Assembly: GCF_002854065.1 (NCBI RefSeq)
Contig: NZ_CP024147.1
DNA: 64,000 nucleotides
Strand: one strand, 5' to 3'
Source: Escherichia coli
GTDB lineage: Bacteria; Pseudomonadota; Gammaproteobacteria; Enterobacterales; Enterobacteriaceae
Shown: positions 44,754 to 49,146 of the stretch, piece after piece
Layout of the letters: each line of letters starts with the position of its first letter
How positions within the stretch are numbered: position 1 is the stretch's first letter
Made by a program: the position numbers and the translations under genes
Notes under the pieces: generated by a model
Databases searched by the model: none
The model's input: the letters and a program-made list of their open reading frames with translations, nothing else
Told to the model about the DNA's origin: nothing

Positions 44754-45014
44754 TTACTTATAAATTACCGCAGTACCGCTTAATTTATTGTTGTTGGTGG
44801 CGGAAGTGATGCTGTATCCACTCGCCCCAGCTGCCGCCGCTTTCTCAGCCAGTTTCGCTTCCAGGGCATCGAGGGTGGATGCGCCATCGGCAGAAACCAC
44901 GCCGATTTTATTCATGTTCTGTGCCTGGGATGCCGTTACCGGTTCCGCGGCAAACACGCCAAATGACAGAGTTGAAAGAGCCATAGCAGCAACAACAGTA
45001 TTGATAGTTTTCAT
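44754..45014 (-). CDS. ybiJ: DUF1471 (YhcN-family) small periplasmic protein
   Basis: 86 aa with signal peptide; ends TAVIYK. Confidence 0.88.
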   Translation of the reverse strand: MKTINTVVAAMALSTLSFGVFAAEPVTASQAQNMNKIGVVSADGASTLDALEAKLAEKAAAAGASGYSITSATNNNKLSGTAVIYK

Positions 45015-45279
45015 AATTAATCTCTCGCAGGTGATTTTTTGTTTAAGTGACGTTGTTTCGTCGATGTGATGAGTATCACGTTTTGTTACGAGAGATAAAA
45101 TCGAAGAGAATTGACCGCCTTGTTCAAATAAATTGATTGATATCTAACATACTGATAAACCATTTATTTGTTGTACTTATGGACCCGTTTTATATCGCGT
45201 GGCAGTCACGGCAGCGTTAAAGGCACGGAATGCCACGAAAAATACAAATTATACTCGCTATACATCTCGCCAGTTGTAG

Positions 45280-45546
45280 TTAACGTAACTGGCTGTCTTT
45301 CGAACCTCTGCGATTATATCCTGTATAAGCTGGTTTTTGTAAATCTTTCTCCTGCTGACAATGAATACATAAGCGCACGCCAGGAATGGCTTCCCGACGG
45401 GCTTGCGGGATGGGGGCACCGCACTCTTCACATTCATACAGGCTTTCGCCACGCGGAATTTCACCCCGAGCGCGGGCAATCGCATCTTCAATTGTACTGT
45501 TGATCTGTTCGTTGACGGCGTCATCGTTAGCCCAACCGGATGCCAT
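45280..45546 (-). CDS. ybiI: DksA/TraR-family C4 zinc-finger protein
   Basis: 88 aa; CEECGAPIP...CIHCQ motif. Confidence 0.88.
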   Translation of the reverse strand: MASGWANDDAVNEQINSTIEDAIARARGEIPRGESLYECEECGAPIPQARREAIPGVRLCIHCQQEKDLQKPAYTGYNRRGSKDSQLR

Positions 45547-45619
45547 ATCGTCCTCCCCATATCAATGCTTGTACAGTTAAGTGTAGCTAATATAGGGACG
45601 AACTCGGGTAGTTCAAGCG

Positions 45620-46297
45620 TCAGATCTCCGACCATTCCCGCAGCAGATTATGATAAAGATTGAGCAGCGACAGGATCTCTTCACTTTCGCCGTAGCGGCT
45701 TTTCAGCGACTGAATATTGTTGTCCAGTTCAAACAGCATGGCGCGCTTTTTATCATCGCGGATCATCGACTGGATCCACATAAATGATGCCACTCGTACG
45801 CCGCGGGTTACGGGTGTCACGCAATGCAGGCTGCTGGAGGGATACAACACCAGATCACCTGCCGGGAGTTTTACCCGATGTTGTCCGAAGGTGTCATTAA
45901 CGACCAGTTCGCCGCCGTCGTAGCTTTGTGGATCGCTTAAAAACAGCGTGGCAGAAAGGTCAGTGCGCATCCAGCCGTTTTGTGGATGGCTGCGTACTGC
46001 GCCATCCACATGAAAACCATAGGTTTCATTGTTCTGATAGCGATTAAACAGCGGCGTGGAAAGGGTACGCGGCAAGGCCGCGGCAAAGAACAAAGCATGT
46101 TGGTTAACCGCGTTCAGCACCTCATTTTGCAGGGCGGCGTATAACGTGCTGCGGGTGTCTACCTGTTGATTGTTCTTAACTTGCGCACCTTGTGCGCCGG
46201 TGGTGACGCGTCCATCCACCCATTCGGCTTGTTCCAGTTGTTCGCGAAAACGGGCGACGTCCTGTGGCGATAACACGCCGGGAATGTGGTACATCAT
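45620..46297 (-). CDS. ybiX: PKHD-type Fe(II)/2-oxoglutarate hydroxylase
   Basis: Start at [10 protein letters not shown] (225 aa); downstream of fiu. Confidence 0.88.
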
Positions 46298-46338
46298 ACA
46301 AGTTCTCCAAAAAGTGGGGCCTGCGCCCCACATCTGAA

Positions 46339-48621
46339 TCAGAAATGCATATTGGCGGTGAGCAAGAAGGTTCTTGGCTCGCCCGGGTGATAACGGTAGC
46401 CGCTCTTGTTGATTGAGGCGACGTAATCGGTATCAAACAGGTTGTAGACGTTTAGCTGGAAGTCGAGATTGCGATTAACCCGATACCCCAGTTTGGCGTC
46501 GGCGACCCAATAACCTTCGGTAAATGCTGGCGTTCCCACTGCGCCGTCGGAACCTTTGTGCATACTGCCGATATAGCGTGCGCCCGCACCCACAGAAATA
46601 TCATCGGTTGCCTGATATTGGCTCCATAAGGTGAAGGCGTGCTCCGGGGTATACGGCAGCGATGAGGAACCATCCTGGGCAACATCTTTGCCGTTTTTGA
46701 TGGTTGCTTTTTGCTGGGTATAGCCGCCAATCACCTGCCACGCGGGAGTAATATTCCCTGCCACGGATATCTCATAGCCTTCGACGCGTTTCTTACCGTA
46801 TTGCGAGTAAGTCCCGTCATCATTTTGCTCAACTTCATTTTCGATATCAGTACGGAACAGCGCGGCGGTGAGTGACAGGCGTTTATCCAGAACCTGCCAT
46901 TTGGTGCCAATCTCGCTGGTGTTGGCTTTTTGCGGTTTAAAATCGGTGCGGTTGGCACTGTTACCGCTGCCAGACTGCGCAAGGGCGAAGTTGTTGCCGC
47001 CCGGAGGCTGCTGGGAAACGGCATAGTTAATATAGACATTGCCGTTTTCCGTCAGGTGATACAGCGCCCCGGCTTTCCAGTTCACCAGATTGCCCGACTT
47101 GGCGGTGTCGACGGTGGTGACCGGAGAACCTTTTGCCACACCAGCTGGGCAGGTGATGGCACCGCGTCCGCTGCCGCCGCAGGCGGTGGCACTGTCATAT
47201 TCAGTATGATAATTATCCAGACGGATCCCGCCGTTCAGCTCAAAATCACGGGTGATTTGCAGCGTATCGAAGGCGTAAATTGCGAAGGTATCCGTCTGAC
47301 CATTGGCGTTTGCGCCGTTGCGCGTCAGGCCGCCGGGATGAATGCTGCTGTCAGGATGATAAATATTTACCGCAGGTAACGTCACCGGATTAACGCCGTA
47401 GTTAGTCTGCGTTTCACGGGTAAATTCCACGCCGGTACTGACATCATGACCGATAGAAGCGGTATAGAACGTCGAGGTCAGGTTGGTCTGGTTGGTGAGA
47501 ATTTTATTACTCACATCTTTAGTATTCGCCGTGCGTGACCAGGTCCAGCTATTCACATCGCTGGTGGGCTGGGTAATATTCGACGCCCCACCCATAATCG
47601 CCGTCATCAGGTAATCCTGCTTCACGCGCGACCAACGGGTAGTATTGCGAATGGTGGTGTTATCGTTGATGTCGTGCTCAAAACGCATGGTAGCGGTGTC
47701 GGTGGTCGAATCGTCGTAATCGGAATCCGTGCCGTAAAAGTTATGCGTATCAACTTTTCCGGAATGATTCAGGGCCGCCGTTCCCGCAGATGGGGCAGAA
47801 TAGCCCGGCAAACCGATGGTCGGAATGCCACCGTCTGGCGTGTTGTGCTGGGTGACATGCAGATAATTAAGATACAAACGATTCGCTGTACCAAGGCCAA
47901 AAGCGACAGAAGGGGCGATGCCGTAACGCTCATTTTTGACTTTGTCGCGTCCGGCATCGTGCGTTTTTTCGCCCATCACATTCAGGCGCGCCGCGGTGGT
48001 ATCACCAATGACCTGATTGACGTCCAGCGTGCCGCGGCGGAACCAGGCGCTACCAATACTGGCGGAGGCGTCAATGCCGGAATCATTGCGCGGCTGCTTG
48101 CTGATCATATTGATCGAGCCTGTCGGTGCGCTGCGCCCGTAGTCGGTGCCGGACGGCCCTTTAATCACTTCGACCTGCTCGGTATTGAAGGTGTCGCGCG
48201 AGACGCTGCCGATATCGCGAATGCCATCAATATAAATACTGTTAGAGGTATCAGCACCGCGCATATAAATGGCGTCGCCAGTGGTGGAGTTACCGTTCTC
48301 ACCCGCAAAAAACGCACCCACGCCGGGGACGTTTTTGAGTGCGTCGGTAAGGTTGGTTGCGCCCTGATCTTTAATCACTTGTTCAGAAATCACCGTCATC
48401 GTGCGGGTAGTATCCGCTACCGGACGCGAGAATTTCGGATCTGCAGATTGTTGTGGCGCATAAAGCGAAGGCGTTGATGCTTCGACAACCAGCGTGTCAT
48501 CCGCGTTAGTTTGCCCTTCGGCGGCGAGTGCCTGAGCCACAGGCGTGATGCCAATACAAAGACCGGCAAAGAACGTGAGCGAATGAAATTGTCTGGCAGG
48601 GAAATTGCGATTGTTTTCCAT
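46339..48621 (-). CDS. fiu: TonB-dependent catecholate siderophore receptor
   Basis: 760 aa; signal peptide; C-terminal aromatic residue typical of outer-membrane barrels. Confidence 0.93.
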
Positions 48622-48725
48622 TTTGCAGGTGACTTTTTCTTATATGTTGAAATTTTCACTGCCACGAGAAAGCCTCTCTGCGGATGCGATGCCACTGTTA
48701 ATCTCGTGATAGTGCTCGTGCAAGT

Positions 48726-48750
48726 GATAATAATTTTGATAAGCATTATC
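48726..48750. promoter_or_regulatory. Fur box in fiu promoter
   Basis: GATAATAATTTTGATAAGCATTATC, close to the GATAATGATAATCATTATC consensus. Confidence 0.75.
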
Positions 48751-48885
48751 ACTTGGCGCGATTTTCTATCACCCATTGTGCGAAAAAGAAATACATTTAT
48801 TTACATTACGTTCATATTTGATGTTTTTTGATTACAAAACAGGCGAAAACTGCATCCAGAGGCGAATGCAGTTACGTTGGTGGGG

Positions 48886-49146
48886 TTATTTGTAGATGGT
48901 TGCAGTACCGAACATCTGGTCATTTCCGCCTGCGGAATTAATGACATAACCTTTCGCGCCTTGTTCGCGCGCTTTTTCTGCCAGTTTATCCTCCAGATCG
49001 CTTAGGTTTGATGCGCCAGTTGCCGAAACGGTACCGGCGGGCCGTAGCTGACCGCTGTCCAGGTTACTCATCGGTTGCGCGGCATAAGCCGTGAGAGAGA
49101 TTCCGCTCAGGACGGTGGCAATCAGTAGTGTGAGGCACTTTTTCAT
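48886..49146 (-). CDS. mcbA: DUF1471 small periplasmic protein (MqsR-controlled colanic acid and biofilm protein A)
   Basis: Start at MKKCLTLLIATVL (86 aa); ends TATIYK like YbiJ. Confidence 0.85.
   Translation of the reverse strand: MKKCLTLLIATVLSGISLTAYAAQPMSNLDSGQLRPAGTVSATGASNLSDLEDKLAEKAREQGAKGYVINSAGGNDQMFGTATIYK

What the first reader, a model, noticed from the sequence alone, without database searches (positions are those of the whole stretch)
44754..49146. Two DUF1471 paralogs (ybiJ, mcbA) bracket the Fur-regulated fiu-ybiX block
ybiJ and mcbA both encode 86-aa secreted proteins with near-identical C-termini (…SGTAVIYK / …GTATIYK). They flank a block containing the zinc-finger gene ybiI, the Fe/2OG hydroxylase ybiX and the siderophore receptor fiu with its Fur box (48726..48750). 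The arrangement suggests a local duplication around an iron-stress module.
Basis: partly seen in the sequence, partly recalled or inferred. Interest (0 to 1): 0.25.

Follow-up and report, generated by a model that had tools for sequence, protein, structure and literature searches.

The report
Old paralogue pair flanking fiu–ybiX
Two small, related envelope-stress genes of E. coli (ybiJ and mcbA) do sit on either side of an iron-uptake gene pair, but this is a well-annotated, ancient arrangement in which the iron genes come and go independently of them, so it is ordinary.

Summary
The window is E. coli chromosome. ybiJ (44754-45014, -) and mcbA (48886-49146, -) both encode 86-aa DUF1471/PF07338 proteins. 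They are 47% identical over their full length with no gaps. They flank ybiI, ybiX and fiu, and the fiu promoter carries a conserved Fur site (48725-48751).

- The "GTAxIYK" C-terminus is a family-wide signature; BhsA, about 330 kb away in K-12, ends in the identical GTAVIYK.
- YbiJ is as similar to BhsA (47%) as to McbA (47%). The three form a supported trio (bootstrap 65-89%) whose internal order is unresolved.
- The split is ancient. Third-codon identity is 34%, within-genome identity is 40-52% in 30 genomes, and no flanking DNA repeat exists.

Synteny across at least 12 genera shows a stable rlmF…mcbA…ybiJ backbone, usually with ybiI just upstream of ybiJ. In Atlantibacter the two paralogues are directly adjacent. 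fiu-ybiX is a separate two-gene cassette that is present or absent as a unit, and deletion scars remain in E. albertii and one Citrobacter. Only the fiu promoter has a Fur motif. mcbA has its own conserved terminator.

Most likely this is an old tandem duplication with a variable slot between the copies, not a duplication "around" an iron module. All components are already annotated and published.

The parts
44754..45014 (-). ybiJ: 86-aa DUF1471 (PF07338) periplasmic protein with a Sec signal peptide (…FAA|EP)
   Evidence: ORF; RefSeq name; Pfam E 7e-18. The literature reports it as acid-induced and envelope-localised.
45280..45546 (-). ybiI: 88-aa DksA/TraR-type C4 zinc-finger protein. It is retained with ybiJ wherever fiu-ybiX alone is missing.
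   Evidence: synteny. It is absent only in Cedecea and Atlantibacter.
45589..45616 (-). Promoter-like element (TTGAAC-16-TATATT) just upstream of ybiI
   Evidence: Consensus scan. The sequence is retained in E. albertii, where fiu-ybiX is deleted. Function is inferred only.
45620..46297 (-). ybiX: PKHD-type Fe(II)/2-oxoglutarate hydroxylase, partner of fiu
   Evidence: It is lost together with fiu across genera. The TBDT+dioxygenase pair is co-conserved in Proteobacteria.
46314..46331 (-). Conserved GC-rich hairpin in the 41-bp fiu-ybiX spacer
   Evidence: terminator-like.: -16 to -22 kcal/mol for the spacer, with compensatory stem changes across 7 genera.
46339..48621 (-). fiu: catecholate siderophore TonB-dependent outer-membrane receptor
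48725..48751 (.). Fur operator: two overlapping 7-1-7 motifs inside a 10-bp-arm palindrome (AAGTGATAAT…ATTATCACTT), overlapping the -10 hexamer
   Evidence: conserved in all fiu-bearing loci. fiu is in the core Fur regulon by ChIP-exo and expression.
48745..48772 (-). Promoter-like site for fiu (GTGATA-16-GATAAT)
   Evidence: consensus match only.
48846..48871 (-). mcbA terminator-like hairpin (CTGCATTC-GCCTCT-GGATGCAG followed by TTTT)
   Evidence: -14.1 kcal/mol for the 50-nt stretch downstream of mcbA that contains it. It is conserved in nearly all loci inspected with compensatory and loop changes. It separates mcbA from the fiu promoter.
48886..49146 (-). mcbA (ybiM): 86-aa DUF1471 (PF07338) periplasmic protein with a signal peptide (…YAA|QP)
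   Evidence: Repression by McbR/YncC comes from the literature.
49147..49421 (.). Divergent rlmF-mcbA intergenic region (mcbA promoter region). No Fur motif.
44627..44751 (.). REP/BIME-type repeat copies downstream of ybiJ, before the hcxB/ybiJ terminator hairpin at 44532-44553
   Evidence: (family D2).

Best explanation
ybiJ and mcbA are two ancient members of the Enterobacteriaceae-specific DUF1471 (YhcN/BhsA/McbA) family of small periplasmic stress proteins. They most likely arose by a tandem, same-orientation duplication in an early Enterobacteriaceae ancestor and have stayed at the rlmF…ybiB/hcxB locus since. The space between them is a variable slot. It usually holds ybiI, and in some lineages also the self-contained Fur-repressed cassette fiu-ybiX, a TonB-dependent receptor plus a 2OG dioxygenase. 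That cassette is gained or lost as a unit, independently of the paralogues. The locus runs as separate transcription units. mcbA has its own promoter and terminator and is repressed by McbR. fiu-ybiX is driven by a Fur-occluded promoter, and ybiI is co-expressed with it according to the Fur-1 iModulon. ybiI also has its own promoter-like site. ybiJ is acid-induced. The 'bracketing' of the iron genes is therefore a by-product of locus history, not a functional or mechanistic unit. Shown here: paralogy, synteny, cassette loss, the Fur motif and its conservation, and the terminator. Inferred: the tandem origin and the transcription-unit boundaries.
For: Paralogy: 47% identity over the full length, and both proteins match PF07338.

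Age of the split:
- Nucleotide identity is 51%, and 34% at third codon positions.
- Within-genome YbiJ-McbA identity is 40-52% in all 30 genomes.
- The only DNA repeat linking the two genes is a 25-nt, 72% match at their 3' coding ends; nothing is shared in the flanks.

Conserved position:
- The order mcbA-[fiu-ybiX]-ybiI-ybiJ holds in 26 loci.
- McbA orthologues (62-71% identity, QLRPAGTVS signature) sit at the same position in E. cloacae, Raoultella, Lelliottia, Trabulsiella, Cedecea and Atlantibacter. In Atlantibacter they are directly adjacent to ybiJ.

fiu-ybiX as an independent cassette:
- It is present or absent as a pair.
- E. albertii keeps 36 nt of the fiu 5' end plus the last 17 nt of ybiX. 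Citrobacter sp. Awk4 keeps the fiu 3' end plus ybiX.
- The pair is known to be co-conserved across Proteobacteria.

Regulation:
- Fur motifs occur only at the fiu promoter and are conserved.
- fiu, ybiX and ybiI are in the Fur-1 iModulon, while ybiJ and mcbA are not mentioned in that paper's main text.
- The mcbA terminator is conserved.

Family context: DUF1471 genes cluster non-randomly in K-12 (P about 0.003), and family growth by duplication with adjacent pairs has been described. On the folded domain, YbiJ+McbA is the most frequent grouping (43-66%).
Against: Sisterhood of YbiJ and McbA is not statistically supported. Over the full length including the signal peptide, the tree prefers McbA+BhsA (62%) or YbiJ+BhsA (35%). 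YbiJ is as close to BhsA as to McbA. Only in Atlantibacter are the genes truly adjacent, and that may be a secondary loss of ybiI. Whether fiu-ybiX was ancestral (many losses) or inserted (some gains) is not settled outside E. albertii and Citrobacter Awk4. Transcription-unit boundaries come from consensus scans and folding, not from transcript data.
Confidence: 0.7

Rival explanations
1. McbA is a dispersed copy of BhsA, or BhsA is a dispersed copy from this locus, and landed next to rlmF. In that case the proximity of mcbA to ybiJ is coincidental or due to a permissive insertion slot, not to tandem duplication.
For: McbA's top BLAST bit-score in K-12 is to BhsA (68.2 versus 52.8 for YbiJ). 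The full-length NJ tree groups McbA+BhsA at 62%. The paper notes that the best Salmonella match to McbA is YcfR/BhsA (47%). The rlmF-ybiI slot does accept unrelated genes such as a flavin reductase, PTS and peptidase genes, and fiu-ybiX.
Against: On the mature or folded domain, McbA+BhsA gets only 8-38% support against 40-66% for YbiJ+McbA. McbA orthologues from 6 further genera are consistently closer to YbiJ (44-49%) than to BhsA (37-46%). The genes share orientation and are co-located in at least 11 genera. Chance co-location of family members is unlikely (P about 0.003).
Confidence: 0.2
2. One reading: the two DUF1471 proteins and fiu-ybiX-ybiI form one iron-stress module. For example, RcsF-like DUF1471 proteins might work with the Fiu outer-membrane receptor, with co-location reflecting co-function.
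For: Physical proximity is conserved in Escherichia, most Citrobacter, Leclercia, Silvania and Raoultella. DUF1471 proteins are envelope proteins with an RcsF-like fold according to a preprint. ybiI lies in the Fur-1 iModulon.
Against: fiu-ybiX is absent in many genomes that keep both paralogues, and K. michiganensis keeps fiu-ybiX without mcbA. No Fur motif lies upstream of mcbA or ybiJ. mcbA is insulated from the fiu promoter by a conserved terminator. The known regulators differ: McbR for mcbA and acid pH for ybiJ. Neither gene is mentioned in the main text of the Fur pan-regulon paper.
Confidence: 0.06
3. The paralogues act as direct repeats that mobilise or excise the intervening block by homologous recombination, as in a composite-element-like or segmental duplication.
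For: The two genes are in direct orientation 4132 bp apart (family D5), and the intervening fiu-ybiX is variably present.
Against: The genes share only 51% nucleotide identity, and the longest repeat is 25 nt at 72%, far too little for homologous recombination. The mapped deletion endpoints lie in the fiu promoter, fiu and ybiX, not in the paralogues, and both paralogues survive intact.
Confidence: 0.02

Closest known systems
DUF1471 / YhcN / BhsA-McbA family (Pfam PF07338) of Enterobacteriaceae
   Same: Both proteins match the family model end to end and are about 86 aa long with a signal peptide. They share the C-terminal GTAxIYK motif. The profile built from YbiJ, McbA, BhsA and YhcN also matches solved DUF1471 structures (2noc, 2ma4, 2jna, 2ma8). 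Family growth by duplication with adjacent gene pairs is already published (PMC4092069).
   Different: Nothing different. These are the named E. coli members YbiJ and McbA (YbiM).
yjfN-bsmA … ula operon … yjfY cluster of E. coli K-12
   Same: It is a second place where DUF1471 paralogues lie close together and flank an unrelated operon. It shows the same kind of pattern as ybiJ…mcbA.
   Different: Its members are much more divergent from one another (20-30% identity). yjfN and bsmA are directly adjacent.
Fiu/PiuA-YbiX/PiuC (CciT-CciO) TonB-dependent receptor + Fe(II)/2OG dioxygenase pair
   Same: It has the same two-gene architecture and Fur control, and behaves as a unit. The pair is co-conserved across Proteobacteria. 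Here it is co-lost as a unit.
   Different: In E. coli the substrate link between Fiu and YbiX is still undefined. Nothing in this window adds to that.
Classical Fur-repressed promoter (Fur box overlapping the -10 hexamer)
   Same: 7-1-7 motifs overlap the -10 hexamer of a sigma-70-like promoter and are conserved across genera.
   Different: The site is 5 mismatches from the 19-bp consensus. It reads better as two 7-1-7 sites offset by 12 bp within a longer palindrome.

Membership tests
DUF1471 / YhcN / BhsA-McbA (PF07338) | Match to the Pfam model above the gathering score | tested here: met
   YbiJ scores 64.8 bits and McbA 69.8 bits against a cut-off of 27.
DUF1471 / YhcN / BhsA-McbA (PF07338) | Small (~90 aa) single-domain protein with an N-terminal Sec signal peptide | tested here: met
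   Both are 86 aa with a K-rich N-terminus, a hydrophobic core and an AxA site (FAA|E, YAA|Q) read from the sequence. No signal-peptide predictor was run. The literature states a Sec signal for YbiJ.
DUF1471 / YhcN / BhsA-McbA (PF07338) | Sequence relationship to solved DUF1471 alpha+beta structures | tested here: met
   The profile of YbiJ/McbA/BhsA/YhcN hits 2noc (E 2.8e-14), 2ma4, 2jna and 2ma8. The 3D fold itself was not predicted here.
DUF1471 / YhcN / BhsA-McbA (PF07338) | Restriction to Enterobacteriaceae | tested here: met
   Nearly all named hits are Enterobacteriaceae genera. The exceptions are one record labelled Vagococcus and one MAG labelled only Proteobacteria.
Tandem (local) gene duplicates | Same orientation and physical adjacency | tested here: met
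   Both genes are on the minus strand, 4132 bp apart in E. coli. They are separated only by ybiI in 10 or more genomes and are directly adjacent in Atlantibacter.
Tandem (local) gene duplicates | The two copies are each other's closest relatives (sister clades) | tested here: inconclusive
   The trio YbiJ+McbA+BhsA has 65-89% bootstrap support. YbiJ+McbA has 11-66%, McbA+BhsA 8-62% and YbiJ+BhsA 16-35%. About 63 informative sites are too few.
Tandem (local) gene duplicates | Residual DNA similarity beyond the coding sequences (recent event) | tested here: not met
   There is no flanking repeat. Nucleotide identity is 51%, and 34% at third codon positions. Any duplication is therefore ancient.
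   This holds for fiu only, at 48725-48751. It is not met for mcbA, ybiI or ybiJ, even at 3 mismatches.
   The literature places fiu in the core Fur regulon and puts fiu, ybiX and ybiI in the Fur-1 iModulon. ybiJ and mcbA are not mentioned in that paper's main text.
TBDT + Fe(II)/2OG dioxygenase co-conserved pair (Fiu-YbiX / PiuA-PiuC / CciT-CciO) | Adjacent TonB-dependent receptor and 2OG-Fe(II) oxygenase genes, inherited together | tested here: met
   Domains. There is a 41-bp spacer with a conserved hairpin. The two genes are present or absent together in 34 loci, apart from one in-progress deletion.

The most novel reading that the evidence does not exclude
The most novel reading not excluded is that the rlmF-ybiI interval is a long-lived 'accessory slot' kept between two DUF1471 paralogues. 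In that reading the RcsF-like DUF1471 proteins have a functional tie to whichever outer-membrane cargo sits there, such as Fiu, so that co-location reflects envelope-stress monitoring of a TonB-dependent receptor.
Probability: 0.04. Interest if true: 0.45.

Novelty: already known. Interest (0 to 1): 0.08.

Why it matters
It matters little. Every gene here is named and annotated in RefSeq. The YbiJ/McbA paralogy and the duplication-driven growth of the DUF1471 family are published. fiu is a textbook Fur target. The modest added value of this check is comparative. It shows that fiu-ybiX behaves as an independently lost cassette inside a conserved mcbA…ybiI-ybiJ backbone, which bears on Fiu-dependent cefiderocol uptake in species that lack it. 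It also shows that the family-wide C-terminal motif should not be used as evidence for a specific paralogue relationship.

Tried and rejected
- The 19-bp Fur consensus with up to 3 mismatches found nothing. The 7-1-7 representation was the appropriate test.
- NJ bootstrap trees on three alignment regions and two taxon samplings could not resolve the order within the YbiJ/McbA/BhsA trio. No ML software was available.
- I looked for DNA-level traces of a segmental duplication and found none.
- I considered paralogue-mediated excision of fiu-ybiX and rejected it because the deletion endpoints lie elsewhere.
- I considered Fur control of mcbA, ybiI and ybiJ and found no motif.
Salmonella, said to lack McbA, could not be inspected directly. 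Other genera were reached through exact-protein look-ups.
- RclB, the tenth K-12 paralogue, was checked. It is at most 31% identical to McbA and YhcN over its longer BLAST alignments, so it is irrelevant to the trio.
- No structure prediction was run. It would add nothing, given 47% gap-free identity and sequence hits to solved family structures.
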